This document shows, in pieces, positions 4,225-64,000 of a stretch of DNA of 64,000 nt (position 1 is the first letter of the stretch; every line of letters starts with the position of its first letter). The notes beneath the pieces are model-generated. The model saw nothing but the letters and a program-made list of their open reading frames with translations. It ran no database searches and was not told where the DNA came from. Made by a program: the position numbers and the translations under genes. The DNA is from Patescibacteria group bacterium (GTDB lineage: Bacteria; Patescibacteriota; Minisyncoccia; Phycocordibacterales; UBA2100): NCBI GenBank assembly GCA_038064835.1, contig JBBTSD010000001.1, positions 234,361 to 298,360 on the forward strand, written 5' to 3'.

Positions 4225-4411
4225 CCCTAAGGGCACTTCCATAAATAACACCATCATCTTTCGCCCACTGCATCACCGTATACAACCCTTGCTCTGTCGC
4301 GAAATATCTCGGCGTACTTATAGTACGACTCGATATTTCACTCGGTCGCAAGGGCCGTCTACGGTGCGCATTAAGCGAAATCTGAAGCAGTTATTTACGG
4401 AAGTGCCCTAA
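4225..4411. mobile_element. MITE-like element, family A, copy 1 (about 187 bp, 22-bp terminal inverted repeats)
   Basis: About 99% identical to 40423..40609 (one internal mismatch). The ends ttagggcacttccataaataac and gttatttacggaagtgccctaa are inverted complements. There is an internal palindrome around gaaatatctcgg...cgactcgatatttc. Confidence 0.65.
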
Positions 4412-4560
4412 GAAGCTGTCTAACTTCAGTGGGCTACTGAAGAGCTTGAATTGGTCTACACGGAGCGCGGAGGAGTGCTCAAGCTCATGTGCGTCAATAG
4501 TTTTCGCCAGAGCACAACAGAGCAGGGGTCACAAGCCTCTGCTTTTGCTATAATTGAGTC

Positions 4561-6864: not shown

Positions 6865-7458
6865 ATGGACATTATTCTGGCGACAAGAAATGTCACCAAA
6901 ACCAGGCAGATTCGGGCAATTTTTATAGGCTCGCCCGTCACAGTCTGGTCGCTTGACGATGCGCGGATTCAGGGTGATTTCGTTGAAGACGGCGCCACCC
7001 TCGAAGAGAACGCGCTCAAAAAGGCGTTGTTTGCCTGGAAGCGTTCGGGTGAAAGATGTATGGCAGACGACACTGGTCTATTCATCGATGCGCTTGGTGG
7101 TGAACCAGGAATTCATGCGGCTCGTTGGGCGGGCGAAGGAAAGAATACTGAAGACATAATGCGGTACACACTCAACCGTCTCGAAGATGTGCCGACGGGG
7201 AAGCGACAAGCAACTTTCAAAACCGTGGCCGCATTTGTTGATCTCACGGGTGCTCATTCTTTTTTCACAGGCCAACTGCGCGGAACAATCTTGCGAGAGC
7301 CCCGCGTACCGTGTCAATCCAAGATGCCGTACAGTGGAATTTTTCTGCCCGATGGGCACGACAAGGTATGGGCTGAAATGTCGGTTTCAGAAGAGAATGC
7401 TATCAGTCATCGTGGAAAGGCTTTTTGGCAATTACGGGATAGCTTGATGTGCGAATAA
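6865..7458 (+). CDS. rdgB: Non-canonical purine NTP pyrophosphatase (dITP/XTP), RdgB/HAM1 family
   Basis: Begins MDIILATRN.K..E, consistent with the family. GGAGGAG RBS lies 4 nt before ATG 6865. The track ORF is extended upstream. Confidence 0.8.
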   Translation: MDIILATRNVTKTRQIRAIFIGSPVTVWSLDDARIQGDFVEDGATLEENALKKALFAWKRSGERCMADDTGLFIDALGGEPGIHAARWAGEGKNTEDIMRYTLNRLEDVPTGKRQATFKTVAAFVDLTGAHSFFTGQLRGTILREPRVPCQSKMPYSGIFLPDGHDKVWAEMSVSEENAISHRGKAFWQLRDSLMCE

Positions 7459-7460
7459 TC

Positions 7461-7488
7461 AGCGGCCGTTATATGGCCGCTTTTTTAT
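7461..7488 (+). terminator. Rho-independent terminator
   Basis: agcggccgttatatggccgc followed by ttttttat. Confidence 0.7.
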
Positions 7489-7501
7489 ACCCGTATTTTT
7501 C

Positions 7502-7666
7502 CTAGTACCCCATTCATAAAATTTTGTCCATAAAACCGCATAATCGTGGCTGCGGCTCGGCAAAAATTCCTTGCCAATGCCCCTGCATTGCCTCGGTATT
7601 TTTACCTTCGCCTCGCTCACGATTCTCCGGTTTTCTCAGGACAAAATTTTACGAACGTGGCACTAG
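7502..7666. mobile_element. MITE-like element, family B, copy 1 (about 165 bp)
   Basis: The first 88 bp are near-identical to 39652..39739. The ends ctagtaccccattcataaaattttgtcc and ggacaaaattttacgaacgtggcactag are degenerate inverted complements. Confidence 0.6.
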
Positions 7667-7697
7667 ACGCCCGCGCGGTGTGCGGTATAGTTTTCGC

Positions 7698-8573
7698 ATG
7701 ATACATAAGTCTTGGATTCTGGGAGGGGTCACTGCACTGTCACTGTTACTTGTGACCAGTGTTCACGCGGCACCAAAAACTGAGTTGCATATAAAAGCTG
7801 ATGGCACCATCGTCGCTACTAATGTAGTTGTTCGGCAAAAATCTGGATCTAATCTTTTCTCGCGCATGACTTGGGGAGAGGCTGTCTATGCGCGCCTGGT
7901 TGTTTTGACGAAAGACACGACAGTGGTAACCAAGGCCTATGGCGAACGCGCGACCAAGGATGATATTCGCGAAGGCGATGTGCTTGATGTGGAGGGCAAG
8001 CTGGTAGGGGCTGACGGATCTATCACTATCGACGCGACGAGTGTGCGCGACCACTCACTACTTAAAGAGTCGAAAGTTATTTCTGGTATTGTAAAAAGTA
8101 TTGACGGTTCGGCACACTCATTCATTCTCCCCAACGCTGAATTCAAAGACACGACAGTTATGGTAACTAGTACCACCACCATTCAGAAAGGTGCCCGTTC
8201 GATCGGCTTTGGCGAACTCACACCTGGGTCAAAAATCATTTCCGTCTCTGGTGTCTACAGCTATCCCACCAATACGCTTTCAGCGATGCATGTAGAAGTG
8301 CACCAAGACAAATTGATTTTCACGCCAAAGAATTTCCAAGGTAAGCTCAAGGAGATTATTGGAACAAGTTTGCCAACTACACTAGTAGTTACCGTGGAAG
8401 GAACCGACTACACCGTGTATCTGTCTGCAACGACTAGTGTTTTGAATGGCGCGAAGGCAAAGACTACCCTCAGTCGGTACGAACTAGGGGACACCGTTCG
8501 TTTCTATGGTGCAATTCGGCCGGTAAATCTATCGGAGATTGACGCAGAAATCGTTCGCGACATCGATTTCTAG
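7698..8573 (+). CDS. Secreted hypothetical protein (signal peptide, beta-rich repeats)
   Basis: Signal peptide MIHKSWILGGVTALSLLLVTSVHA. The track ORF starts inside the MITE; ATG 7698 is used instead. Confidence 0.5.
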   Translation: MIHKSWILGGVTALSLLLVTSVHAAPKTELHIKADGTIVATNVVVRQKSGSNLFSRMTWGEAVYARLVVLTKDTTVVTKAYGERATKDDIREGDVLDVEGKLVGADGSITIDATSVRDHSLLKESKVISGIVKSIDGSAHSFILPNAEFKDTTVMVTSTTTIQKGARSIGFGELTPGSKIISVSGVYSYPTNTLSAMHVEVHQDKLIFTPKNFQGKLKEIIGTSLPTTLVVTVEGTDYTVYLSATTSVLNGAKAKTTLSRYELGDTVRFYGAIRPVNLSEIDAEIVRDIDF

Positions 8574-26437: not shown

Positions 26438-26974
26438 ATGTCCAGTGTTTTACGAGTTTTACGAAAAGTAGCCAGCGTTGGCACCCCCACCGAGCCTGCT
26501 CCCGAGGCTGTTTTCGTTGCAAAAGAGCTACCTGTAGGGGAGAACTTGCGCAAAGCCATTGAACAATTATATGGCGGACGGGCACTGCGTATTCGACATG
26601 TGGATGCAGGATCGAACAATGGAGAGGAATATGAAATGACGGCACTCAACAATGCCTTCTACGACATCGAACGATTCGGCCTTTCTTTCGTCGCGTCTCC
26701 TCGACATGCGGATGTGCTCACCGTTTCCGGTCCGGTGACGAGAAATATGGAACACGCCCTGCGGGTGTGTTATGAAATGACACCTGCTCCGAAAATAGTG
26801 ATTGCTGTGGGTGATGGTGCATGCACCGGCGGTATCTGGAAAGACTCCTATGCAGTTGTTGGCGCTGTCGAAAATGTCATTCCTGTTGATCTCAAAATAC
26901 CGGGTGATCCGCCATCACCCAACGAGATTCTTTCAGGGATTCTGCATGCGCTGACGCATGCGCGAGTTCGTTGA
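26438..26974 (+). CDS. NuoB / group-4 hydrogenase small-subunit homolog lacking 3 of 4 Fe-S cysteine ligands (EhrS-like)
   Basis: It aligns to NuoB: RHVDAGSNNGEEYE replaces the CCxxE motif, IAVGDGACTGG replaces GSCAxSGG, and IPGDPP replaces GCPP. The conserved DIERFG and RHADVL regions are retained. Confidence 0.75.
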   Translation: MSSVLRVLRKVASVGTPTEPAPEAVFVAKELPVGENLRKAIEQLYGGRALRIRHVDAGSNNGEEYEMTALNNAFYDIERFGLSFVASPRHADVLTVSGPVTRNMEHALRVCYEMTPAPKIVIAVGDGACTGGIWKDSYAVVGAVENVIPVDLKIPGDPPSPNEILSGILHALTHARVR

Positions 26975-28940
26975 TATTTCTATGGGCTTACTTACTGAAC
27001 TTTTGGTGATTACTGGGTGCGCCGCACCATGTGTCGCGGGTTTTGTGGTTCTCCTTGCCCCGCACCGGAACACGGTCATGCAATCAGTGCTTGTTCTCGG
27101 TTCTCTCGCCGGCTTTTGCGGGACCATCCTTTCGTTCTTTATTGAGAATCCAATTTTCGCGTTGCTCGCACCATACACTATGGTTGACGCGGTGTCTTTG
27201 TTCTTTCTGTTGCTTGTTTTTGCAGGAACGGGCATCACCTCGTTTTTTGCCATCGCGTATGTACCACTATACAAGTATGCATTTCCCGCATCACGCGTGA
27301 ACGGAGCAACAGCATTTTTTGTGACCGGTATGCTGGGTGTTGTAGTTGCAGGGAGCGTTCCGCTGTTCCTTTTCTTTTGGGAAGTAATGTCTATAGCAGC
27401 ATACTTTCTGGTAGTTTCTGATCGTTCGGCAGAATCTATTAAGGCCGGACTCATTTACTTCGTCATGACCCATCTGGGGCTTGTTTCACTCCTTGGTGGA
27501 TTTGCGCTGATTGCGCCCGACTCGATTTTTGCTACCTGGCAAGATGTGGTAATTGCCGCGGGCGGAGCGTCCTACTGGTCGTTGGCGTTTGCCTTCGCGC
27601 TTTTCTGCATTGGATTTGGGTCAAAGGCTGGAATAGTGCCATTTCACGCATGGCTTCCGTATGCTCATCCGCAAGCTCCAAGTCACTCATCCGCACTTCT
27701 CTCTGGCGTTATGCTTCCTGTCGCTGTGTTTGGTTTTATTCGCATCAGCTCGCTATTTCCCTTTATCCCATTTGAATGGGCGTGCATGGTGATTGCGGCA
27801 GGACTCCTCTCCGCCTTCTTCGGGTCACTGCACGCCGCTGTCGAAAAAGATATGAAAAGACTGCTTGCCTATTCGTCAATTGAGCACATGGGGCTGATCT
27901 TTACCGGCATAGGCGTTCTATTGGTCTTGAAAACCGCACCACATGAAATTGCGGGGCCACTCATCGAGGGGGTTTCATTGTTCATAGCGCTTCATCTCGT
28001 CAATCATATGTTTTTCAAGGCAGGGCTTTTTATGTCTGCTGGTATCGTCGCCGCTAAGACACACACACGAAACCTGGATGAGTTGGGAGGTCTCGCAAAA
28101 CGCTGGCCTCTCTTTTCTGGGGGCGTTTTGCTCCTCTCGCTTTCGGCAGCAGCTCTTCCGCCTCTCGGTACTTTTTTTGGTGAGTGGGCTTTGATGCAAT
28201 CACTCGCACTCGGTATTGCTCAGCTACCTTTGCTTTTTGCGGGCGTTCTTTCCATTGTGCTTATGGTTGTCGCGCTCGCTGCTGGTCTTGCGCTCCTGGC
28301 ATCAATCAAATTGTTTAGTGTTGCATTCTTGGGACGAGCGCGTACAGAAAAAGCGGCGCATGTTGAGTCCTTGCCGTGGTCTTTGATGCTGGCTCCTCTG
28401 TTCTGTGCGGTGGGAGGGGTTCTTACTGCATTTATTGCCGTTCCATTTTTTGCGGCCCACACAATGCGGGGGGCAAACATTGTGTTTTCAGACATTAGTC
28501 TTGCCCCGACTGCCAGCGTAAATGTATGGGCGACTGCTGCCACGGTCCTCGTATTGGCCGGTCTCATACTGCTAGTGAGACGCTTGTTTGGTGCAGAAAA
28601 AGTTCGTATCACGGCAACATGGGATTGTGGTGCGCCACTCACGCCACGGATGCAATACACTGCAACAGGATTTGCAGGACCCGTTCGCTTCTTTTTTCGC
28701 CCGTTTCTCTTTTTAAAGAAAACACTCACCGTGACCCCGCTTGCAGGACATTCGTGGATTGCGAGTCGCGTGCTCATTTCAGAAGTAGGATCTGTCTGGG
28801 AGCGATGGGTGTACCAGCCTGTTGCGGATAGTGTGCTTTCAGTCGCGTCGTATGCAGCGCGTATACAAAGCGGAATAGTTCAGGTATATATTCTCATAAT
28901 TTTTGTGACCCTGGTTGCAACACTTACGCTCGCCATATGA
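26958..28940 (+). CDS. NuoL/MnhA-like antiporter-type membrane subunit (HyfB/EhrA-like)
   Basis: 660 aa, about 16 TM segments. WLPYAHPQAPSHSSALLSGV matches the NuoL/M/N signature [22 protein letters not shown]. The start overlaps the stop of the preceding gene. Confidence 0.75.
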   Translation: MREFVDISMGLLTELLVITGCAAPCVAGFVVLLAPHRNTVMQSVLVLGSLAGFCGTILSFFIENPIFALLAPYTMVDAVSLFFLLLVFAGTGITSFFAIAYVPLYKYAFPASRVNGATAFFVTGMLGVVVAGSVPLFLFFWEVMSIAAYFLVVSDRSAESIKAGLIYFVMTHLGLVSLLGGFALIAPDSIFATWQDVVIAAGGASYWSLAFAFALFCIGFGSKAGIVPFHAWLPYAHPQAPSHSSALLSGVMLPVAVFGFIRISSLFPFIPFEWACMVIAAGLLSAFFGSLHAAVEKDMKRLLAYSSIEHMGLIFTGIGVLLVLKTAPHEIAGPLIEGVSLFIALHLVNHMFFKAGLFMSAGIVAAKTHTRNLDELGGLAKRWPLFSGGVLLLSLSAAALPPLGTFFGEWALMQSLALGIAQLPLLFAGVLSIVLMVVALAAGLALLASIKLFSVAFLGRARTEKAAHVESLPWSLMLAPLFCAVGGVLTAFIAVPFFAAHTMRGANIVFSDISLAPTASVNVWATAATVLVLAGLILLVRRLFGAEKVRITATWDCGAPLTPRMQYTATGFAGPVRFFFRPFLFLKKTLTVTPLAGHSWIASRVLISEVGSVWERWVYQPVADSVLSVASYAARIQSGIVQVYILIIFVTLVATLTLAI

Positions 28941-29872
28941 CACTTCTTTTCGCATGTATAAATACCATAGTGATTGTTGCGATCGCCCCACTGACCATTG
29001 GTATAATCCGGAAAGGAAAGGCATATTTGCAGAATAGAAGAGGAGCATCAATTTTTCTCCCATACCTGCAAATTGCGTCACTTATGCGCAAGGAGATGAC
29101 TATAACGGAACATAGCTCATGGGTCTTTCGTAGTGTCCCGTTCGTTGTGCTTGCTAGCGCACTTTTTATAACTATCGCTATTCCTGCGGTGGTTATCGGA
29201 GTGATGCCCAGTGCCCTCACTAATATATTTGTGGTTGTGGGTGCGCTTGCGTTTGGTGCGGTTTTTCTCGTGATGGGCGGAATGGATACCGCTAGCACAT
29301 TTGGCAACATGGGATCCAGTCGAGAAATGACATTATCCGCTCTCGTAGAGCCCGTGATTGTTATCACCCTCTCCACACTTGCACTTCTGGCGGGGAGTTG
29401 GGGAGTGGACGGTATTCTTACAAACGCAGTTTTGAATCCATGGGCAGATGGTGGGGCATTCGCACTCACGCTTTGCGCGCTTCTGTTGATTACACTTCTT
29501 GAAAATGCTCGTTATCCAGTCGACAACCCTGCAACCCATCTCGAGCTGACCATGGTGCATGAGGCAATGATTTTAGAGTACTCGGGCCCGTATCTCGCGC
29601 TACTTGAATATGCAGCGGCAATCAAGCTTACAGTGATGGCTGTTTTTGTAGCAAACCTTGCGCTGCCATACGGACTGGTGGTGGCACCAGTATCGCTTGT
29701 AGGCATTCTGGTGGGCATCAGTTTGTTCTGCGGGAAGGTCGGACTTGCTGCCTTGGTGATTGCGCTAGTAGAGACCCTGGTTGTAAAAATGCGTTTCTAT
29801 CGAATGCAAGAGTATGTGTTACTCTCGCTTGCATTTGCCCTCGCTGGCTTGAGTGTTGCTCTACTCACCTAA
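28937..29872 (+). CDS. NuoH/HycD-like membrane subunit (EhrB-like)
   Basis: 311 aa. IRKGKAYLQNRRGASIFLPYLQ resembles the N-terminal loop motif of the NuoH/HycD family. ATGA start/stop overlap. Confidence 0.65.
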   Translation: MTLLFACINTIVIVAIAPLTIGIIRKGKAYLQNRRGASIFLPYLQIASLMRKEMTITEHSSWVFRSVPFVVLASALFITIAIPAVVIGVMPSALTNIFVVVGALAFGAVFLVMGGMDTASTFGNMGSSREMTLSALVEPVIVITLSTLALLAGSWGVDGILTNAVLNPWADGGAFALTLCALLLITLLENARYPVDNPATHLELTMVHEAMILEYSGPYLALLEYAAAIKLTVMAVFVANLALPYGLVVAPVSLVGILVGISLFCGKVGLAALVIALVETLVVKMRFYRMQEYVLLSLAFALAGLSVALLT

Positions 29873-29880
29873 TACATAGT

Positions 29881-30528
29881 ATGACTTCACTATCAGATAT
29901 AATTGTTATTTTTTCAGGCGGTATCTTGCTGGTGTCATTTTTCATGGTAAGCAGGATGCGCCTGAGGACAATGGTTTCTTTGTTCCGTGCGCAGTCTCTC
30001 TTGCTCGCTGGGTACACCAGTGTACTCGCACTTATTCTGGACGAGCCTGCCATGCTCATACCCGCCGGATTGATATTTGTTGCGAAAGTATTCGCCGTGC
30101 CTTACTTGATTCGTTCGTCCAGTAGGCGGATGAACGCTTCAGAGCGCCTCTCCTCCTTCTTGCGTCCTACAGGGTTATCAATTGCGGCACTTGTTTTAAT
30201 TAGCGGAGCTTTTCTCGTCGCACAATCACTGCCGTTCACTACATCAGAGCAGGGGATTGTGGGTACCGCTTTTGCTCTTATTGCACTCGGGTTTCTTCTG
30301 CTTGTAACACGCACAGATATGTATGGGCAGACGCTCGGTTTTCTGACGCTCGAAAATGGCATTTTTGCTTTCGGGCTTTCGCTCACCCATGGTATGCCGT
30401 TACTTGTCGAGCTCGGCGTTGTATTCGATGTTATGGTTGCATTCCTTCTGATGACGGCACTGTTGGCGAGAGCCCAAAAAGAATACCGATCAGTAGGTAC
30501 TGAAAACTTACGCGAGCTTATCGGCTAA
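29881..30528 (+). CDS. Small polytopic membrane subunit (HyfE/EhrC-like)
   Basis: 215 aa with about 6 TM segments. The size and operon position correspond to HyfE. Confidence 0.45.
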   Translation: MTSLSDIIVIFSGGILLVSFFMVSRMRLRTMVSLFRAQSLLLAGYTSVLALILDEPAMLIPAGLIFVAKVFAVPYLIRSSSRRMNASERLSSFLRPTGLSIAALVLISGAFLVAQSLPFTTSEQGIVGTAFALIALGFLLLVTRTDMYGQTLGFLTLENGIFAFGLSLTHGMPLLVELGVVFDVMVAFLLMTALLARAQKEYRSVGTENLRELIG

Positions 30529-30536
30529 TTACTTGT

Positions 30537-32015
30537 ATGCTTCCTTCTCTCCTACTGCTCTCATCTTTGGCAAGTGGCGTGCTGGTATTTATAGTGCGGC
30601 CCGATCGATTTGTGTGGGGGGTTGCTTTTCTCGGCTCATGCATTGCTCTGGGGTTTGGAGTTTTTGTTGGAGTCATTGCGATCACTGGTGGTGGGATTTT
30701 TGGAGGGGGTGCATGGTACCTCAATGGGATCACCGGCGTTATGGTGGTCTTGATAGCAGTGATTCAATTCACTGCGACACTCGTGAGTATTTCACATCTC
30801 TCACATGAAGTGCATCACCAGGTGGTGACAGTGGCGCAGGCGCGCCGTTACTTTGCACTCCTGTCACTCTTCACTCTTTCTATGTTTGCTAGCGTGATGG
30901 CCAACAACCTGGGCATTCTGTGGGTTGCTCTGGAAGCAACGACCCTCGCAACCACGCTTCTTGTCGCATTCTATGCCCGTCCAGGATCACTGGAGGCCGC
31001 GTGGAAGTATCTCACGCTCTGTTCTGTAGGAATTGCTATCGGACTCTTGGGTCTTTTTGTGGCCTACTATGCTGCCTATGTTGCCCATGTGGGCGATCGC
31101 CTCACCAGTATCCAGTGGACAACATTGTTCGAAAACGCACACCTCCTTTCTCCCGAACTTATGCAGTTTGCATTTGTCCTTGTGCTCATCGGTTATGGCA
31201 CTAAGGCGGGATTTGCGCCAATGCACGCATGGCTTCCCGATGCACATTCTCGCGCCCCTGCGCCTATCTCAGCACTTCTTTCCGGAGTGCTTTTACCTGT
31301 TGCTTTTTTTGCAGTGATTCGTTTCAAGGCAATCGTTGATGGAGCGATGGGTGGAAGCGAATGGAGCAGCAGCCTCCTTATCATCTTTGGTGTGTTTTCT
31401 ATAGTAGTTAGCGCGATTTTTATCGTGCGGCAAAGTGATTACAAACGACTGCTTGCCTATTCATCGATCGAACATATGGGTATTGCGGCGTGTGCTTTTG
31501 CACTTGGTGCCTTCGGATCGGTTATTGGTCTAGTGCACATTGTCGGGCACGCTCTCATCAAGTCCGCCTTGTTCTTTGGTGCGGGCGAATTGTTCCTTCG
31601 TTTCAAAACAACGCTCTGTTCCCGTGTTGGTTTTATTTCAGAAACACTTCCACTGACCGCGACATCATTCACTATCGCTCTAGGTGCGTTACTGGCTATC
31701 CCCCCGTCTCCTCTTTTCTTTACTGAGTATCAGCTCGTGTTGTATGGCATGCGCTTTGAGCCGCTTTCTATTTCGCTCCTGCTTGTTGCTTTGGTGGTTA
31801 CCGCGGCTGGCTTCATGAGAACTGTGGTGCCTCTTTTAGTGGCACCAGCGACTGCTGTTGAAACACATGAAGTCCCCAAGGGTGAGTTCTGGACATTGGC
31901 TCATGTAGCAGTGTATGTGCACTTGCTGCTTGCCGTTATGTTGGGTGTTATGGTATGGACGCCACAAGGCCTGGCCTTTTTTGCGCATATTAGTATGGTG
32001 TCACCACACATATGA
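30537..32015 (+). CDS. NuoM/N-like antiporter-type membrane subunit (HyfF/EhrD-like)
   Basis: GYGTKAGFAPMHAWLPDAHSRAPAPISALLSGV is the canonical antiporter-subunit motif. 492 aa. Confidence 0.75.
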   Translation: MLPSLLLLSSLASGVLVFIVRPDRFVWGVAFLGSCIALGFGVFVGVIAITGGGIFGGGAWYLNGITGVMVVLIAVIQFTATLVSISHLSHEVHHQVVTVAQARRYFALLSLFTLSMFASVMANNLGILWVALEATTLATTLLVAFYARPGSLEAAWKYLTLCSVGIAIGLLGLFVAYYAAYVAHVGDRLTSIQWTTLFENAHLLSPELMQFAFVLVLIGYGTKAGFAPMHAWLPDAHSRAPAPISALLSGVLLPVAFFAVIRFKAIVDGAMGGSEWSSSLLIIFGVFSIVVSAIFIVRQSDYKRLLAYSSIEHMGIAACAFALGAFGSVIGLVHIVGHALIKSALFFGAGELFLRFKTTLCSRVGFISETLPLTATSFTIALGALLAIPPSPLFFTEYQLVLYGMRFEPLSISLLLVALVVTAAGFMRTVVPLLVAPATAVETHEVPKGEFWTLAHVAVYVHLLLAVMLGVMVWTPQGLAFFAHISMVSPHI

Positions 32016-33550
32016 CCCTTTCATTATTGCGCGAACAAATAGGTGTGGCACAAGGGTCGAACGATCTTGTTTCGATTGCCAGAGCCGAGTTTCGTACTAT
32101 GGCCGTGCGTTGTGTGCAGGCGGGTGCGCCACTGGTGTTTATGTACGCGCTTGACGAGCGATCGACGCGTCGTGTGTTTGTTGTGCGTGCAGTGTTTTCT
32201 GTGCCTGGATCGGGATTCCTCACCCTCACCGTCGATGTTCCTGAGCAAGAGTTATCCTACCCGTCTCTAACTACGGAAATCATGGCCGCCCACTGGTTCG
32301 AACGGCTTATCTTCGATCAGTATGGTCTAGTGGCTGAAGAGCATCCAGATTGGAGGCGACTCATGCATCATGAAAATATTCCTGCACATGTGTACCCGTT
32401 GCGCAAGGATTTTGCGTGGAACACCAAGCTTCCTTATGCGAGCGAACCATATCCCATGCACGCGGTGCAGGGCGATGGTATCTATGAAATCCCTGTGGGA
32501 CCAATTCACGCAGGAATTATTGAGCCAGGTCACTTTCGTTTCAATGTACGAGGTGAGAGAATCGTCACACTCGAAGGAAAGTTGTTTTTCAAACATAAAG
32601 GAGTAGAAAAACTAGTCGAAGGAAAAACCCCTGCAGAGGCACTGCCTTTTATTGAACGGGTGTCCGGTGACATGGTAGTGGCACATACACTTGCGTTTGC
32701 AGAAGCAGTTGAGCACGCATCCGGCATGTCAATAAGTGCGCGTGCTGATTCGTTGCGTATGCTGTGGCTCGAAATGGAGCGACTCACGGCTCATATCTTT
32801 GACATTGGCAACATGGGGGGTATGGGGACTGGATTTACTTTCATGGCGGCGCAGTGTTTTCGTGTAGTTGAGGAGTTACGACGCATGCACTATGCAATTG
32901 TTGGGCATCGATATCTCCGGGGTGCAATCACGCTTGGCGGCGCTCACGATATTAGTCAAAAGAATAGAGAAGATCTCGATGCGTTACTGACAAAGGTTGA
33001 AACCGAGCTCGAGACGCTTTGCGGGATTGCGTATGCGAATGATGGCCTCATGGAACGATTTGAAACAACCGGGGTTCTTTCTCGTGCTGCAGCGATTGCC
33101 TACGGTGCGCGTGGAGTGCCGGCCAGAGCATCTGGTGTTACTAGTGACATGCGTCGCGATCATCCGTCAGGTGCTTATACTCGCATCCCGGTAACGGTTG
33201 CTACCAAGACTTCTGGGGATGTGCGCGCACGGTTTTCGGTCCGTGTCCTTGAATGTGCAGAATCTCTTCGTTTGGCTCGTCTCTGTTTGACGCAACTGCC
33301 ACAAGGACCGGCATATACAAAGTTTTCGGTGCATGCAGGAAGTTCGCTTGGATGGGCTGAAAGTTTCCGTGGAGCAGTCATTGATTGGGTACGCATTGAC
33401 ACATCGGGAAAGTTGGATCGTGTAGCGATATCCGATCCGTCATTCTGTAACTGGTCACTGTTCGGAGAAATTGGCCCCGGCAACATCGTCCCCGATTTTC
33501 CTTTGTGTAACAAAAGCCTTAACCTGTCGTACTCAGGAACCGATCTGTAG
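32012..33550 (+). CDS. Fused NuoC-NuoD / hydrogenase large-subunit homolog without Ni-Fe binding cysteines (EhrL-like)
   Basis: N-terminal NuoC-like region, then a NuoD/HycE-like region (GPIHAGIIEPGHFRF). No N-terminal CxxC is present. The C-terminal motif is DPSFCNW instead of DPCxxCxxH. ATGA overlap with the upstream gene. Confidence 0.75.
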   Translation: MTLSLLREQIGVAQGSNDLVSIARAEFRTMAVRCVQAGAPLVFMYALDERSTRRVFVVRAVFSVPGSGFLTLTVDVPEQELSYPSLTTEIMAAHWFERLIFDQYGLVAEEHPDWRRLMHHENIPAHVYPLRKDFAWNTKLPYASEPYPMHAVQGDGIYEIPVGPIHAGIIEPGHFRFNVRGERIVTLEGKLFFKHKGVEKLVEGKTPAEALPFIERVSGDMVVAHTLAFAEAVEHASGMSISARADSLRMLWLEMERLTAHIFDIGNMGGMGTGFTFMAAQCFRVVEELRRMHYAIVGHRYLRGAITLGGAHDISQKNREDLDALLTKVETELETLCGIAYANDGLMERFETTGVLSRAAAIAYGARGVPARASGVTSDMRRDHPSGAYTRIPVTVATKTSGDVRARFSVRVLECAESLRLARLCLTQLPQGPAYTKFSVHAGSSLGWAESFRGAVIDWVRIDTSGKLDRVAISDPSFCNWSLFGEIGPGNIVPDFPLCNKSLNLSYSGTDL

Positions 33551-38850: not shown

Positions 38851-39669
38851 ATGAACATACTTGACGCGATTATACTCGGAGTGGTGCAGGGGCTCACTGA
38901 ATTCCTGCCTGTTTCTTCGTCCGGTCACCTTATTTTGGCTCGTGAGCTGTTTGGCGTTGGTATAGAGGGGGGACTTGCATTTGATGCAGCCCTTCATTTT
39001 GCGACCGCATGCGCTGTGATAATGTACTTCCGCGCTGACATAGTCGTCCTTGTGCAGTCGTGCTTTCGATTCATTATGCGTCATGAGGACTCTGCGGACG
39101 GCAAGGCTATGATGTGGGGCATTGCCCTTGCAACTATCCCCGCATTCGCACTAGGCCTTTTGCTTGAAAGTGTCATGGAAACAGTCTTTCGAAATGGCTC
39201 GTTGGTGGCAGGTACGCTTGTCGCAGGATCAGTAATTATGTATGCGGCAGAAAAATGGGTGTCGGTGGACACTAAAAGCCAAGTACCCACATTACGCACA
39301 GCGTTTCGGATAGGGCTCTTTCAATCACTCGCCTTGATTCCTGGTATGAGCAGATCGGGTATGGCTATTGCGGGAGGTATGTTTTTAGGGCTTTCACGAG
39401 AAGCGTCGGCGCGGTTTGCATTTCTGATTGCTGTGCCACTTATGCTGGGCGCCGGCTTGAAAAAAATTATAGACCTGGGGGCTGAAGGGTTGGCGGCGGA
39501 GGGAAATATATTGGCGGCGGGGATGATCACCGCGTTTTTGGTCGGGGTGTTCGTTATTCACTACTTGATGCAGTTTTTGCGTACGAATTCACTTACGGTA
39601 TTCATATGGTATCGCATGATCCTGGCGATGCTAGTACTTGGATCTATATGGCTAGTACCCCATTCGTAA
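38851..39669 (+). CDS. uppP: Undecaprenyl-diphosphatase
   Basis: GVVQGLTEFLPVSSSGHL and PGMSRSG are BacA/UppP motifs. The last 5 codons and the stop lie inside MITE-B copy 2. Confidence 0.9.
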   Translation: MNILDAIILGVVQGLTEFLPVSSSGHLILARELFGVGIEGGLAFDAALHFATACAVIMYFRADIVVLVQSCFRFIMRHEDSADGKAMMWGIALATIPAFALGLLLESVMETVFRNGSLVAGTLVAGSVIMYAAEKWVSVDTKSQVPTLRTAFRIGLFQSLALIPGMSRSGMAIAGGMFLGLSREASARFAFLIAVPLMLGAGLKKIIDLGAEGLAAEGNILAAGMITAFLVGVFVIHYLMQFLRTNSLTVFIWYRMILAMLVLGSIWLVPHS

Positions 39670-39802
39670 AATTTTGTCCATAAAACCGCATAATCGTGGC
39701 TGCGGCTCGGCAAAAATTCCTAGCCAATGCCTCTGCATTTTTCAGATATGGGGAAGATTATGAACAGCTACTTAGGACAAAATTTTACGAATGGGGTACT
39801 AG
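39652..39802. mobile_element. MITE-like element, family B, copy 2 (151 bp, perfect 28-bp terminal inverted repeats)
   Basis: ctagtaccccattcgtaaaattttgtcc and ggacaaaattttacgaatggggtactag are exact inverted complements. The first 88 bp match 7502..7589. Confidence 0.65.
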
Positions 39803-40422: not shown

Positions 40423-40609
40423 CACTTAGGGCACTTCCATAAATAACACCATCATCTTTCGCCCACTGCATCACCGTATGCAACCCTTGCTCTGTCGCGA
40501 AATATCTCGGCGTACTTATAGTACGACTCGATATTTCACTCGGTCGCAAGGGCCGTCTACGGTGCGCATTAAGCGAAATCTGAAGCAGTTATTTACGGAA
40601 GTGCCCTAA
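40423..40609. mobile_element. MITE-like element, family A, copy 2
   Basis: About 99% identical to 4225..4411 (one internal mismatch), with the same terminal inverted repeats. Confidence 0.65.
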
Positions 40610-41181
40610 AAACCAAGTGTTTGTGTCAACGGGCGCGAGGAGGGCTTGAGCCACTGTCGGGTATCAAGTTTTAAATCTTTCAACTTACCAAGCTCACGAT
40701 AGCGGACAGCCCCATTTTTAAGTGCAAAATCAAAAATCTTTCGTGTAATTTCAACATCTTTAAGGCAATATTCCCGCACCTGATCAATCTTGCCTTCTCG
40801 CCACCACTTCAGCGATTGAAGGCCATGACCGCTTTTGCGCTCGCCCAAAGTACCCTCGGCAATGGTATCCAATTTGATGCGCCTACCAAGGACAGCATAC
40901 ACTTCTTTGAGTAGGTCAAGACTTTTGAGTTGGGTGAGATCGCCTGGATAATATTTATTGAGTAGCGGAATATCGAAGTGATCGGAATTAAATCCGACAA
41001 GCATATCTGCTTTTTCAAGTACTTTCCAAAGACGAGGGAGGTCGCTCATTAAAAATGAGTCGTAGGAGCCATCTTGTGAATCGTGAATGCCAACAATCGC
41101 AAGTTCAAGTGCCGCGGGGTCTGATGATCCGACATCGGAGAACTGATTCGTAGTTTCAATATCAAAGGTGATGATGCGCAT
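40606..41181 (-). CDS. DEDD-family 3'-5' exonuclease (DnaQ/RNase T-like)
   Basis: FDIETT (Exo I), HFDIP (Exo II) and YCLKDVE (Exo III). The stop codon lies in the MITE-A terminal repeat. Confidence 0.65.
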   Translation of the reverse strand: MRIITFDIETTNQFSDVGSSDPAALELAIVGIHDSQDGSYDSFLMSDLPRLWKVLEKADMLVGFNSDHFDIPLLNKYYPGDLTQLKSLDLLKEVYAVLGRRIKLDTIAEGTLGERKSGHGLQSLKWWREGKIDQVREYCLKDVEITRKIFDFALKNGAVRYRELGKLKDLKLDTRQWLKPSSRPLTQTLGF

Positions 41182-43244: not shown

Positions 43245-43315
43245 CGCTTTAGTATGCAACAAGATGACAAAATTGCACGCCACCGATGAGGTAACCCCTC
43301 ACGGGGATTATTAGG

Positions 43316-43457
43316 GAACCTCTGGCAGTAAGGTTTCTGGAGTGTAGGACCGGTTAGCGATCAAGAAAACAAGGAGTGGCTACGACTATGTTTTTGGAAG
43401 CACCCTTTGTGGTGCGGCCTTGGAGCGCACTCCAGAAACCTTACTGCCAGAGGTTCC
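43316..43457. repeat. 29-bp perfect inverted repeat enclosing an 83-nt loop that contains an RBS plus 28-codon ORF
   Basis: ggaacctctggcagtaaggtttctggagtg at 43316-43344 pairs with cactccagaaaccttactgccagaggttcc at 43428-43457. aaggag at 43371-43376 and ATG at 43388. Confidence 0.55.
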
Positions 43458-45933: not shown

Positions 45934-46134
45934 TTATGCCTTTGCAACGTTGACGGCGCTAGGGCCTTTCGGTCCCTCAGTGATCTCAAAAGTCACTCGG
46001 TCGCCCTCACGAAGATCGTCGTAGCGGAGTCCCTGAAGATCCTTGGCATGGAAGAAGACATCCTTGTCTCCGCCCTCTGGCTTGATGAAGCCGTAGCCAC
46101 GATCCGTGAGACGCGCGATAGTTCCTGAACTCAT
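45934..46134 (-). CDS. cspA: Cold-shock protein (CspA family)
   Basis: GYGFI (RNP1) and VFFH (RNP2). 66 aa. Confidence 0.9.
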   Translation of the reverse strand: MSSGTIARLTDRGYGFIKPEGGDKDVFFHAKDLQGLRYDDLREGDRVTFEITEGPKGPSAVNVAKA

Positions 46135-61723: not shown

Positions 61724-63643
61724 ATGTTTGTTGTCCGCAGACTTCCTGAGAATCCGCTTCTGCGCCCAAACTTTGATAGGGCGTGGGATGGTTTCGGAGC
61801 CTTTAATTGGTGTCCGGTTGACAAAGAAGGTAAGACACATGTGGTGTATCGGGCTATGTCACTTGCAGATCCGTTGCGTGAAGGGCCACACAATATCTCG
61901 ACGGTCGGATACGCGGTTTCCGAAGACGGAGTGCATTTTAGCGGTAATAGACAACTCATTGCACCCGAGCACGACTGGGAAAAATATGGATGCGAAGATC
62001 CCCGAGTGACCTACTTCGAGGGAACCTACTGTATTTTTTATACCGCTCTTTCACAATTCCCGTTTCGTCCCGAAGGGATTCGCACGGCACTTGCGACAAC
62101 CCGTGATTTTAAAAAAATAGACAGCAAACATCTCATCACCCCATTCAATTCAAAAGCGATGGCGTTGTTTCCCGAGCGAGTCAACGGAAAAATTACCGCT
62201 ATCTTGACTGCCGATTCTGAACGAATGCCGAAAAAAGTTGCGATTGCACAATTTGATACTGACTCCGATCTGATTGATCAGGAATGGTGGAAGAAGTGGT
62301 ATGAAAACATTGATGCGCATCGTATCTATCCAGAGCGTACAAACAATGATCAAGTTGAAGTCGGATCGCCCCCACTCAAAACCGACCGAGGCTGGCTGGT
62401 CATTTACTCGCTTATCGAGAATCATTTTGACAAAGGTATTCAATACCAATATGTCTATGGTATTGAAGCGGTCCTTCTCGATATGCACGACCCGCACAAA
62501 ATTATCGGTGCCACAAAAGGGCCGATGCTGACACCGTTTGAAGGGTACGAACGAGCGGGAATTGTAGGGAATGTCATTTTCCCAAGTGGCGCCCGCATTC
62601 ACGGAGATCAACTCGAAATATACTATGGAGCGGCAGATACAACAGGGTGTGTGGCATCGGTTCGTCTTACAGATCTTCTGGATACCATGCACCCAGAGAC
62701 TGCTTCGCGCATGAGTCTGACTCGTTCATCAGAAGAACCCATCATTACTCCTCGTCCAGAGAACGCATGGGAGAACAAAGCGACTTTTAATCCGGCAGCT
62801 ATCGATATCGATGGCACGGTGCATATCTTGTATCGGGCAATGGGCAATGACGATACTTCAGTCATTGGCTATGCGACAAGTGAGGATGCTGTGCATATTA
62901 CCGAACGACTGAGCGATCCGGTCTATGTGCCCCGTTCAGATTTCGAGCAGAAGCGACGCGGCGGAAATTCGGGGTGCGAAGATCCGCGTATCACGCGGAT
63001 TGGCGACACTCTCCACATGATGTATACCGCGTATGATGGCATTGGGCCTCCCCGTGTGGCAACATCGTCGATTTCAATTTCTAATTTCACAAAAAGGAAA
63101 TGGGAGTGGAGCGAGCCACAACTTGTCACACCGGCAGGTGTCGACGACAAAGACGCCTGTTTGTTTCCACGCACGATAGAGGAAAAATATGTCCTTGCGC
63201 ATCGTATTGCGAATACGATATGTCTATTTCGTTTTGATACGCTCGATTTTGCACACCAAAAAGCAAATACCTGCACACATGTGTTGGGGCCACGACCTGG
63301 CATGTGGGACAATCTAAAGGTAGGACTTGCGGGACCTCCCCTTGAGACACCGGGTGGCTGGCTCCTTTTTTATCACGGTGTTTCCGGATTTCAGAAAACC
63401 TATCGTATGGGCGTGGCGCTCTTGGATCTGAAAGACCCGTCGATTGTTCTAGGGCGCAGTACCGATGCGATTTTCTCTCCCGAAGCCAAGTACGAGAAAG
63501 AGGGTATTGTGCCGAATGTAGTATTCCCCTGCGGACATATTTTGCGAAACGGTATTGTGTACTCTTACTATGGCGGGGCAGATACAGTCATTAATGTCGC
63601 CGAAATGAAGCTCGATACGATACTTACTGCACTCAGACCCTAA
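61724..63643 (+). CDS. Tandem double GH130-like domain protein
   Basis: There are two complete motif sets: NWCPV..VVYRAMS / CEDPRVTYF..YTALS / YYGAADT, and FNPAAIDIDGTVHILYRAMG / CEDPRITRI..YTAYDG / YYGGADT. Confidence 0.6.
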   Translation: MFVVRRLPENPLLRPNFDRAWDGFGAFNWCPVDKEGKTHVVYRAMSLADPLREGPHNISTVGYAVSEDGVHFSGNRQLIAPEHDWEKYGCEDPRVTYFEGTYCIFYTALSQFPFRPEGIRTALATTRDFKKIDSKHLITPFNSKAMALFPERVNGKITAILTADSERMPKKVAIAQFDTDSDLIDQEWWKKWYENIDAHRIYPERTNNDQVEVGSPPLKTDRGWLVIYSLIENHFDKGIQYQYVYGIEAVLLDMHDPHKIIGATKGPMLTPFEGYERAGIVGNVIFPSGARIHGDQLEIYYGAADTTGCVASVRLTDLLDTMHPETASRMSLTRSSEEPIITPRPENAWENKATFNPAAIDIDGTVHILYRAMGNDDTSVIGYATSEDAVHITERLSDPVYVPRSDFEQKRRGGNSGCEDPRITRIGDTLHMMYTAYDGIGPPRVATSSISISNFTKRKWEWSEPQLVTPAGVDDKDACLFPRTIEEKYVLAHRIANTICLFRFDTLDFAHQKANTCTHVLGPRPGMWDNLKVGLAGPPLETPGGWLLFYHGVSGFQKTYRMGVALLDLKDPSIVLGRSTDAIFSPEAKYEKEGIVPNVVFPCGHILRNGIVYSYYGGADTVINVAEMKLDTILTALRP

Positions 63644-63701
63644 GAAGCTGTCTAAAATCTTTCCCCCTGGCAGGGTACCACGAAGATTTTAGACAGCTTC
63701 T
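63644..63701 (+). terminator. 19-bp perfect stem hairpin after the GH130 operon; member of a short repeat family sharing ccctaagaagctgtctaa with 4405..4422
   Basis: agaagctgtctaaaatctt at 63644-63662 pairs with aagattttagacagcttct at 63683-63701. The loop contains cccctggcagggg. Confidence 0.5.
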
Positions 63702-64000
63702 AAGCAGATGAGAGTGTTGTAGAGCTCTTGAATTTTAAACATTTAGTGGTAGGGTACATCTAGCTAAAACCAGACAGACGAGTCAGGGAGAAGCTGTGTG
63801 CAGCAGTCGGAAGCAGAGCTCTCGGCGTCATTTCTGTGCGAAATGAGGTATGCCCTCAGGGCTCATCCTGAAAAAGAAGAGTCCCTTGAACTATTACGCT
63901 CGGACATTGCCTTTCGGCGTTGTACCGAAGAAAGCATTCTCAAGCTGCTAAAAAAGATTAGTCGGGCAAAAGCGCTCGACTATCATGATGTCTCACTGAT

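What the first reader, a model, noticed from the sequence alone, without database searches (positions are those of the whole stretch)
7502..7666. MITE family B: second, unrelated inverted-repeat element downstream of rdgB
7502..7666 shares an 88-bp near-identical 5' half with 39652..39739 (3 mismatches). It ends with a degenerate copy of the same 28-bp terminal repeat (ctagtaccccattcataaaattttgtcc ... ggacaaaattttacgaacgtggcactag). Copy 1 is inserted between the rdgB terminator and the next gene. The ORF track's long N-terminal extension of that gene (7524..7697) is element sequence. Two distinct MITE families in one 64-kb window suggest an active or recently active mobile-element population in a compact genome.
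Basis: seen in the sequence. Interest (0 to 1): 0.6.

Follow-up and report, generated by a model that had tools for sequence, protein, structure and literature searches.

The report
Small hairpin transposon in groundwater Patescibacteria
The flagged 165-bp stretch is a real copy of a small, non-coding, hairpin-shaped mobile DNA element (a MITE) that sits at the very ends of genes in a tiny groundwater bacterium; it is a new family, but of an already well-known kind.

Summary
7502-7666 and 39652-39802 share an 88-bp 5' part (3 mismatches) and 28-bp terminal inverted repeats (TIRs). No shuffle of the window produced such a match.

Copy 1 is the canonical form. Its "degenerate" right arm recurs at three unrelated metagenome loci (88-95% identity, no flank homology). 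Copy 2 is the rearranged variant, with perfect TIRs.

The element is a 165-nt imperfect palindrome, bounded by C-TA...TA-G in every copy. It lies at or within about 45 nt of a gene's stop codon. Two unrelated proteins, UppP and TatD, both end in the same element-encoded tail, LVPHS.

Reconstructed empty sites fit a TA duplication inside CTAG, which is the IS630 habit. No transposase lies within 83 kb, and no empty allele was found.

The host is a Patescibacteria MAG from the Hainich aquifer. The family is absent from 185,579 representative genomes, from viral contigs, plasmids, phages and Rfam.

Verdict: a MITE, and a new member of a known kind. Three side observations came up:
- ACGT is almost absent from the genome, and one of its two sites in the window lies inside copy 1.
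- A divergent relative (B') shares a conserved inner module with family B.
- The predicted hairpin stability is strongly strand-asymmetric, and this is unexplained.

The parts
7502..7666 (+). Family-B element, copy 1: the canonical 165-bp full-length form, an imperfect palindrome
   Evidence: It is 94-95% identical to L001:2329-2493 and L003:6907-7071, and 89% identical to L002:1399-1563. Flanks show no homology. It folds as one long hairpin with z-scores of -9.7 (+ strand) and -12.4 (- strand).
7502..7529 (+). Left terminal inverted repeat of copy 1 (C-TA-GTACCCCATTCATAAAATTTTGTCC)
7639..7666 (-). Right terminal inverted repeat of copy 1 (read on the - strand: C-TA-GTGCCACGTTCGTAAAATTTTGTCC). 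It holds one of the only two ACGT sites in the window, at 7655-7658.
   Evidence: This arm variant is conserved in L001, L002 and L003.
7548..7620 (+). Inner module, GGCTGCGGCTCGG...CCTTCGCCTCGC. It is shared with the divergent relative B' at L039:21706-21775, with the two halves 56-57 nt apart in both.
39652..39802 (+). Family-B element, copy 2: a 151-bp variant. It consists of the canonical 5' 88 bp, then 35 unique nt (39740-39774), then a right TIR that is perfectly complementary to the left one.
   Evidence: (I4)
38851..39669 (+). uppP (undecaprenyl-diphosphatase). Its last four codons (VPHS) and its stop codon are element sequence (39655-39669).
   Evidence: Homologues end 3-4 residues earlier. 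The reconstructed empty site reads ...IWLV-TGA. TatD at L001 carries the same LVPHS tail.
7461..7490 (+). Intrinsic terminator of the Ham1/rdgB gene (6865-7458), 12 nt upstream of copy 1
7698..8573 (+). Downstream gene (291 aa, no Pfam domain). A promoter-like site, TAGACG-16 nt-TATAGT (7664-7691), starts at the element's last three bases.
   Evidence: This is a consensus match only.

Best explanation
This is a non-autonomous DNA transposon (a MITE) of a family not previously described. It lives in a Patescibacteria (candidate phyla radiation, CPR) genome from Hainich aquifer groundwater.

The canonical element is 165 bp long and encodes nothing. It carries 28-bp TIRs and is palindromic along its whole length.

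It most likely moves by cut-and-paste, using a DDE transposase of the IS630/Tc1-mariner type supplied in trans. Insertion would go into the TA of a 5'-CTAG-3' site and duplicate that TA. In this gene-dense genome, only insertions at the extreme 3' ends of genes have survived. Many of those CTAG sites contain the TAG stop codon itself, or lie one or two codons before the stop. The element carries stop codons in all three frames within 32 nt of its left end. An interrupted gene therefore gains only a few residues, such as the tail LVPHS.

What is shown:
- It is a discrete, repeated element.
- The TIRs are present.
- It is dispersed to unrelated loci, and to a second host of different GC content.
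- Every copy is bounded by C-TA...TA-G.
- Every copy sits at a gene's 3' end.
- The protein tails are element-encoded.

What is inferred:
- The TA duplication, from open-reading-frame reconstructions rather than from an observed empty allele.
- The transposase family.
- Mobilisation in trans.
For: Repeat and TIRs.

Dispersal. The three full copies at L001, L002 and L003 share only the element with the window. L001 and L003 have the window's GC content (0.49-0.50) and its near-total lack of ACGT (0 observed against 35 and 25 expected). Protein accessions for UppP and TatD lie 572 apart. These loci are therefore probably from the same genome. L002 has GC 0.58 and normal ACGT, so it is a different host.

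Repeat behaviour in assemblies. Logan contigs end inside the element at three loci. L017 is a chimera joined through the shared 88 bp.

Boundaries. All six elements, including B', read C-TA-[element]-TA-G. Two carry single-base deviations.

Target duplication, from reading frames:
- The uppP empty site reconstructs to ...IWLV*, which matches the length of homologues. If the CTAGs were element DNA, the protein would read on for at least 28 more codons with no stop in the sequence read.
- TatD keeps the FGL motif seen in close homologues only if the CTA codon is host DNA.
- The stops of murI (L003), of an unnamed gene (L002) and of pth (B') lie in the CTAG/CTAA junction.

Absent site. The syntenic uppP locus in GCA_964462785.1 lacks the element.

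Literature. IS630-family elements duplicate TA. A cited title (Tenzen & Ohtsubo 1991) reports preferential transposition to TA in 5'-CTAG-3' (PMC2170065). The general features of bacterial MITEs are listed in PMC2229807.

No Rfam family matches.
Against: - No transposase gene lies in contig positions 225,325-308,003. No autonomous element with these ends was found in any collection.
- No empty allele was seen. All sampled strains carry both insertions.
- CTAG is palindromic. The sequence alone therefore cannot separate a TA duplication from a TIR that simply begins with CTAG. Only the reading-frame reconstructions argue for the duplication.
- Only five full copies are known, plus one divergent relative and one remnant.
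- The copies differ by about 5%, so recent activity is unproven.
- The strong strand asymmetry of hairpin stability and the conserved inner module are not predicted by a purely DNA-level transposon model.
Confidence: 0.72

Rival explanations
1. It is a mobile or exapted structured RNA element. On this reading the hairpin works in transcripts, as a 3'-end stabiliser, a terminator or a processing site, as reported for ERIC and Correia/NEMIS elements. Selection on one RNA strand would then maintain the element. This can coexist with a transposon origin.
For: - One strand folds 15-28 kcal/mol better than the other in all four canonical copies. The divergent relative B' shows the same polarity.
- Only 4 of 300 randomly mutated palindromes reach that asymmetry.
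- Three base pairs show compensatory changes among four sequences.
- The inner module, with purine-rich internal loops, is conserved between B and B' although the arms beside it differ.
- Every copy sits in a 3' region. ERIC elements affect mRNA stability in an orientation-dependent way (PMC2229807).
Against: - Covariation is not significant: 39 of 500 shuffles do as well.
- The copies share ancestry, so the asymmetry may trace back to a few events in a master copy.
- In the two contexts where the flanking genes run in tandem (copy 1 and L003), the more stable strand is antisense to both flanking genes.
- Copy 1 follows a complete intrinsic terminator, so it may hardly be transcribed.
- There is no Rfam match and no expression data.
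Confidence: 0.15
2. It is a REPIN-like element: a doublet of extragenic palindromes moved as single-stranded DNA by a RAYT/HUH (Y1) transposase, with no target duplication.
For: - The copies are extragenic and lie at gene 3' ends, often between convergent genes.
- The whole element forms a hairpin.
- The strand asymmetry fits an enzyme that reads one strand.
- No DDE transposase lies nearby.
Against: - The arms are 28-bp TIRs inside a 165-nt palindrome. They are not 20-40-bp REP units carrying a GTAG or CGTC tag, and neither tag is present at the ends (read from the sequence; the REP definition is taken from the abstract of PMC3733652).
- The reading-frame reconstructions favour a duplicated, host-derived TA.
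- No Y1 or RAYT gene lies in the 83 kb examined.
- Few copies are known.
Confidence: 0.08
3. It is not a mobile element. The similarity would then reflect a duplicated regulatory region or a segmental duplication.
For: There are only two copies in the window, and they share just one half.
Against: - Similarity stops exactly at the TIRs.
- Three further full copies lie in unrelated gene contexts, one of them in another host.
- The copies lie downstream of genes, and two overlap coding ends.
Confidence: 0.02

Closest known systems
IS630/Tc1-mariner-derived bacterial MITEs, with IS630 itself as the model for target choice
   Same: - TIRs of about 25-28 bp.
- Each element is flanked by TA inside a CTAG context. 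IS630-family elements duplicate TA, and a cited title (Tenzen & Ohtsubo 1991) reports preference for TA in 5'-CTAG-3' (PMC2170065).
- Small and non-coding, with a presumed transposase acting in trans.
   Different: - No IS630-type transposase, and no IS with matching ends, was found.
- The TIR sequence matches nothing searched.
- The TA duplication is inferred from reading-frame reconstructions, not from an observed empty site.
Correia/NEMIS elements of Neisseria
   Same: - About 107-155 bp long, with 24-bp TIRs, TA at the termini and a target-site duplication.
- Length variants that differ by an internal segment.
- Long stem-loop transcripts (PMC2229807).
   Different: - The host phylum is different, and no sequence relationship was established.
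- Correia elements occur in hundreds of copies, whereas only a handful of copies are known here.
- An IHF site, promoter function and RNase III processing were not tested.
ERIC/IRU (127 bp) and YPAL/RU-2 (168 bp) palindromic repeats of enterobacteria
   Same: - Imperfect palindromes of similar size, extragenic and found at gene ends.
- Sometimes fused to coding sequence.
- Predicted long RNA hairpins, with orientation-dependent effects reported for ERIC (PMC2229807; PMC2759123 abstract).
   Different: - ERIC has only short TIRs (7 bp). YPAL lacks terminal TA and makes duplications of 3-26 bp.
- The element here has 28-bp TIRs and constant C-TA/TA-G junctions.
- There is no functional evidence here.
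Rickettsia palindromic elements (RPE)
   Same: Palindromic repeats in a small genome that become part of protein-coding genes (PMC2229807).
   Different: RPEs insert in frame inside genes and add internal peptide segments. Here the element replaces only the last few codons and supplies the stop codon.

Membership tests
Bacterial MITE (criteria as in PMC2229807) | Small (<200 bp) and without coding capacity | tested here: met
   The elements are 151-165 bp. Most reading frames contain stops. No database protein matches any frame.
Bacterial MITE (criteria as in PMC2229807) | Terminal inverted repeats | tested here: met
   The arms are 28 nt long, 100% complementary in copy 2 and 86% in copy 1.
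Bacterial MITE (criteria as in PMC2229807) | Multiple copies at unrelated loci | tested here: met
   There are two copies in the window, plus L001, L002 and L003, with no flank similarity. Contigs break inside the element.
Bacterial MITE (criteria as in PMC2229807) | Target-site duplication, shown by comparing filled and empty sites | tested here: inconclusive
   No empty allele was found. The distant syntenic relative lacks the element, but it is too diverged for base-level comparison. Reading-frame reconstructions favour a host-derived C-TA.
Bacterial MITE (criteria as in PMC2229807) | Transcript or strand folds into a long, stable stem-loop | tested here: met
   In silico only. MFE is -61 kcal/mol (+ strand) and -89 kcal/mol (- strand), with z-scores of -9.7 and -12.4.
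Bacterial MITE (criteria as in PMC2229807) | A parent IS or transposase whose ends match the TIRs | tested here: not met
   None was found in 83 kb of the contig, in 185,579 genomes, in the metagenome or viral collections, or in plasmids and phages. The rest of the MAG could not be scanned.
IS630/Tc1-mariner-type element | TA target, duplicated on insertion; CTAG preferred by IS630 | tested here: inconclusive
   C-TA...TA-G junctions occur at 6 of 6 elements, two with one-base deviations. This is compatible with a TA duplication, but it is not proven without an empty site.
IS630/Tc1-mariner-type element | A DDE(D) transposase with HTH domains that recognises the TIRs | not testable with these tools
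None was seen in the parts that were read.
REP/REPIN (RAYT-mobilised) | REP units of 20-40 bp carrying a GTAG or CGTC tag | tested here: not met
   The ends read CTAGTACC and CTAGTGCC. Neither tag is present at the termini. The REP definition is taken from the abstract of PMC3733652.
REP/REPIN (RAYT-mobilised) | An associated RAYT (Y1 transposase) gene | tested here: inconclusive
   None lies in the 83 kb examined. The rest of the genome was not seen.
Any Rfam RNA family | Covariance-model match at or above the gathering score | tested here: not met
   No match in the whole window. The permissive scan of 7440-7720 returned only two matches below the gathering score, both lying mainly on the neighbouring terminator region (7440-7517).

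The most novel reading that the evidence does not exclude
The element may be more than selfish DNA. Family B and its divergent relative B' keep three things in common: the same terminal motifs, a conserved inner module with purine-rich internal loops, and the same strong strand bias in hairpin stability. The arms between the termini and the module have been replaced. This would fit a mobile structured-RNA module, or a protein-binding hairpin, that Patescibacteria genomes recruit at gene 3' ends, for instance to form or protect mRNA ends between tightly packed genes. A truncated relative in a eukaryote-like contig (L004) would also allow a cross-domain history for the parent transposon.
Probability: 0.1. 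Interest if true: 0.6.

Novelty: new member of a known kind. Interest (0 to 1): 0.33.

Why it matters
- **Mobile DNA in a reduced genome.** CPR/Patescibacteria genomes are very small and gene-dense. The full-text search paired "miniature inverted-repeat transposable" with "Patescibacteria" in only two papers, neither apparently about such elements judging by title and abstract. A documented MITE family, together with a second family and a divergent relative in the same contig, shows that non-autonomous transposons persist even here. It also shows where they are tolerated: at CTAG sites on or next to stop codons.
- **Consequences for annotation and assembly.**
  - The element creates false N-terminal extensions, as at 7524-7697.
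  - It rewrites C-termini, giving UppP and TatD the same LVPHS tail.
  - It breaks or mis-joins metagenome contigs (L017).
- **A possible timing marker.** The element's ACGT site, in a genome otherwise almost free of ACGT, could help date when the element arrived relative to the restriction or methylation pressure on the host.

Tried and rejected
- **Representative genomes.** Two pattern scans of 185,579 species genomes returned nothing. One used the outer TIR and one required both inner arms. The family is therefore absent from the representatives, and the window's species is apparently not among them.
- **Viral contigs.** A 17-mer gave 17 single hits. None extends beyond the 17-mer, so all are chance matches.
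- **Plasmids and phages.** blastn found nothing meaningful.
- **Six-frame peptide trick.** I concatenated peptides from all six frames of the element and searched 5.8 billion proteins, hoping to find other copies through mis-called ORFs. There were no hits.
- **Empty-site search in other strains.** Every contig read at the two window sites either carries the element or ends inside it. L017 looked like a shorter allele, but it is an assembly chimera.
- **Covariation.** Only four sequences were available. Three pairs show compensatory changes, which is not significant.
- **Family A against family B TIRs.** Only one of four arm comparisons reached a nominal 9/500, so this was rejected as evidence of relatedness.
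- **L005.** The 24-nt match lies in the overlapping ends of two housekeeping genes, so it is chance.
- **Literature.** A search for the TIR strings found nothing.
- **Blocked look-up.** I worked around this through a homology search.

Full report
**Observation.** 7502-7589 and 39652-39739 are 97% identical over 88 nt (D2; alignment). The 28-nt terminal motif CTAGTACCCCATTCRTAAAATTTTGTCC occurs four times in the window, as two inverted pairs: 7502-7529 with 7639-7666, and 39652-39679 with 39775-39802. None was found in 100 dinucleotide-preserving shuffles. The partner copy is itself a complete element, 39652-39802, with 100% complementary arms (I4).

**Which copy is typical.** A pattern scan of metagenome contigs with CCMCRTTCRTAAAATTTTGTCC returned five loci. 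Three hold full-length elements in the reverse orientation:
- L001:2329-2493 and L003:6907-7071, both from Hainich aquifer well H51, 0.1-µm fraction.
- L002:1399-1563.

These are 94%, 95% and 89% identical to copy 1 over its whole length. Nothing outside the element is similar to the window. All three keep the arm pair GTACCCCATTC / GTGCCACRTTC. Copy 1's "degenerate" right arm is therefore the family norm, and copy 2, with its perfect arms and foreign right interior, is the variant.

**Host.**
- The window is positions 234,361-298,360 of contig CAYHZP010000001.1 (330,809 bp) of GCA_964361175.1. Its UppP is named by NCBI as from a "Patescibacteria group bacterium".
- L001 and L003 have the same GC content (0.49-0.50) as the window. 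They also share a very unusual trait: the tetranucleotide ACGT is almost absent. The counts are 2 observed against about 155 expected in the window, 0 against 35 in L001 and 0 against 25 in L003.
- The NCBI accessions of the window's UppP and L001's TatD are 572 apart.
- I infer from these three points that L001 and L003 come from the same genome or a very close one. That genome would then hold at least four copies.
- L002 has GC 0.58 and normal ACGT (5 against 7 expected), so it is a different host.

**Anatomy.** The canonical element is an imperfect palindrome along its whole length and folds into a single long hairpin. Copy 1 gives -61.3 kcal/mol on the + strand (z = -9.7) and -89.3 kcal/mol on the - strand (z = -12.4). 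With DNA parameters the same fold gives z = -7.8. Most reading frames contain stops. No database protein matches a translation of any of its six frames. Rfam has no match at gathering scores in the whole window. The permissive scan of 7440-7720 gave only two weak matches, both lying mainly on the neighbouring terminator region. There are no tRNA genes in the window.

**Where the copies sit.** Every copy lies at the 3' end of a gene.
- *Copy 1* begins 12 nt after the intrinsic terminator of the Ham1/rdgB gene. It ends 31 nt before the start codon of the next gene.
- *Copy 2* supplies the last codons and the stop of uppP, which ends ...IWLVPHS*. Fourteen homologues end 3-4 residues earlier.
- *L001* supplies the same tail to an unrelated protein, TatD, which ends ...RVFGLVPHS*. 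No listed homologue has that tail.
- *L003*: the TAA stop of murI sits in the junction.
- *L002*: the TAG stop of a gene on the opposite strand is the TAG of the terminal CTAG. A serA-like gene stops 10 nt from the other end.

Three sites are between convergent genes and two between tandem genes. None is between divergent genes.

**Junctions and target.**
- All copies read C-TA-[G...C]-TA-G. L001 has CA for one TA, and L003 has one extra A. Because CTAG is its own reverse complement, the sequence alone cannot say whether C-TA is host DNA or element DNA. The reading frames help.
- *uppP.* If TA (or CTAG) is duplicated host DNA, the uppP empty site reads ...ATA TGG CTA GTG TGA. That gives a protein ending ...IWLV*, within one residue of where homologues end. 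If both CTAGs belonged to the element, the protein would read on for at least 28 more codons, with no stop in the sequence read.
- *TatD.* The leucine of the FGL motif, present in several close homologues, is encoded by that CTA. The motif is ancestral only if CTA is host DNA.
- *The relative B'.* It ends CTAA...TTAG. That fits TA inside CTAG, with an element that begins with A. It does not fit a 4-bp direct duplication.
- This pattern is the known habit of IS630-family elements, which duplicate TA. A cited title (Tenzen & Ohtsubo 1991) reports preferential transposition to TA in 5'-CTAG-3' (PMC2170065).
- The window has 59 CTAG sites, 53 of them outside the elements. The restriction of copies to gene ends is therefore best read as survival of harmless insertions, not as a lack of targets elsewhere.
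- The left end has stops in all three frames within 32 nt (read from the sequence). This keeps C-terminal extensions short.

**Evidence of repeat behaviour.**
- Logan contigs carrying uppP end 27 nt after its stop.
- Logan contigs carrying the gene downstream of copy 1 start 76 nt upstream of it.
- Logan contigs carrying L001's TatD end 11 nt after its stop.
- All of these break points lie inside the element. This is what a repeat does to a de Bruijn graph assembly.
- L017 joins the 3' end of uppP to the right half of copy 1 through the shared 88 bp. A real recombinant of that kind would delete 32 kb that includes the RNA polymerase genes, so I read L017 as an assembly chimera.

**Empty sites.**
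- I found no empty allele. All contigs read at both window sites carry the element or break inside it.
- The closest available relative is GCA_964462785.1, whose UppP is 63% identical. It keeps the gene order dsbA-uppP-...-RNase H-hisS-.... It has a 98-nt spacer after uppP with no trace of the element, and it shows no ACGT depletion.
- This agrees with an insertion in the window's lineage. The relative is too distant for a base-level comparison.

**Transposase.** Pfam annotation of contig positions 225,325-308,003 shows only housekeeping and envelope genes. The TIR pattern found no longer element in any collection. The mobilising enzyme is therefore unknown, and the IS630-type assignment rests on the junctions alone.

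**A divergent relative and an inner module.**
- About 9.5 kb past the window's end, L039:21673-21806 is a 134-nt palindrome between pth and a DCC1-like gene. The TAA stop of pth lies in the element's terminal CTAA.
- It shares the end motifs with family B: CTAaCCCATTC and GAACG...TTTAG.
- It also shares an inner module, GCGAGGCGA[AC]GG followed 56-57 nt later by CCGAGCYGCAGCC. The arms in between are different (AAGTGGTGAAAATTA).
- Its more stable strand (-65.5 against -44.6 kcal/mol) has the same polarity as in family B, where the values are -86 to -90 against -61 to -74 kcal/mol.
- A crude null model of randomly mutated palindromes reached the observed 28 kcal/mol difference in 4 of 300 trials.
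- Among the four canonical copies, three base pairs show compensatory changes. However, 39 of 500 shuffles do as well.
- These points hint at a constraint on one strand, at the level of RNA or single-stranded DNA. They do not establish it. In the two tandem-gene contexts the stable strand is antisense to both neighbours.

**Comparison with known elements.**
- The element meets the descriptive criteria for bacterial MITEs: under 200 bp, non-coding, with TIRs, TA at the termini, and a long stem-loop (PMC2229807).
- It most resembles Correia/NEMIS elements in TIR length and in having length variants.
- It resembles ERIC and YPAL in being a whole-length palindrome at gene ends.
- It resembles RPEs in becoming part of proteins.
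- It is not a REP or REPIN, because it lacks a GTAG or CGTC tag and is not built from 20-40-bp units (abstract of PMC3733652).
- The full-text search paired MITEs with Patescibacteria in only two papers, and neither looks relevant from its title and abstract.

**Verdict.** This is a real, discrete mobile-element family. It is new as a family and ordinary in kind.

Noticed in passing
whole window; ACGT sites at 7655-7658 and 45947-45950; also L001 and L003: The tetranucleotide ACGT is almost absent: 2 observed against about 155 expected in 64 kb, 0 against 35 in L001 and 0 against 25 in L003. The closest relative (L038: 32 against 33) and L002 are normal. One of the two sites lies in copy 1's right arm (GAACGTGGC). 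L001 and L003 read GAATGTGGC there, while L002, from the non-avoiding host, keeps ACGT. This suggests an ACGT-specific restriction-modification system or loss through m5C deamination, and it suggests that the element arrived carrying the site.
   Followed up: partly
window 4227-4414 and 40425-40612: 'Family A' is a second palindromic MITE-like element. The two copies are 98.4% identical over 188 bp and about 72% self-complementary. Their ends are TTAGGGCACTTCC...GGAAGTGCCCTAA, flanked by TAA/TTA. A Logan contig (L042) ends 37 nt past the upstream gene's stop, which is inside copy 1 of this element. Its TIR resemblance to family B is not significant.
   Followed up: partly
L039:21673-21806 (contig positions about 307,756-307,889, roughly 9.5 kb beyond the window's end): The divergent relative B' of family B. 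It is a 134-nt palindrome between pth and a DCC1-like gene. It shares the end motifs and the inner module with family B, but its middle arms are different.
   Followed up: yes
L004:300-430 (Ga0209628_10119403): A truncated relative of family B. It holds a 24-nt exact match (AGGACAAAATTTTATGAATGTGGC) and a 14-nt match (GTCCATAAAACCG) in the right order. The contig is 2.7 kb with GC 0.40, (GT)n and (GA)n microsatellites and no ORF above 102 aa, so it looks eukaryotic. Its origin is unknown.
   Followed up: partly
window 43315-43457: A perfect 30-nt inverted repeat (GGAACCTCTGGCAGTAAGGTTTCTGGAGTG) encloses 83 nt in an intergenic region. It may be a third small element or a structured RNA. There is no Rfam hit at gathering score.
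   Followed up: no
window 63640-63704 and 4408-4423: A 65-nt hairpin with 22-nt arms (CTAAGAAGCTGTCTAAAATCTT...). Its first 16 nt recur exactly at 4408-4423, overlapping the right end of family A copy 1 and the adjacent flank.
   Followed up: no
L017 (Hain_H41_01um_R3_68503): A public contig joins the 3' end of uppP to the right half of copy 1 and its downstream gene, through the shared 88 bp. This is a likely assembly chimera caused by the repeat.
   Followed up: yes
window 26438-33550: A cluster of complex-I / group-4 hydrogenase-like subunits (Oxidored_q6, Proton_antipo_M twice, NADHdh, and a fused Complex1_30kDa+49kDa with a weak NiFeSe_Hases hit). From my own knowledge, not checked here, Patescibacteria are usually described as lacking respiratory complexes.
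   Followed up: no
window 7664-7700: A promoter-like site, TAGACG-16 nt-TATAGT, ends 6 nt before the ATG at 7698, which suggests a leaderless transcript. The -35-like hexamer starts with the element's terminal TAG, which a TA/CTAG duplication would also leave at an empty site. This is a consensus match only.
   Followed up: no
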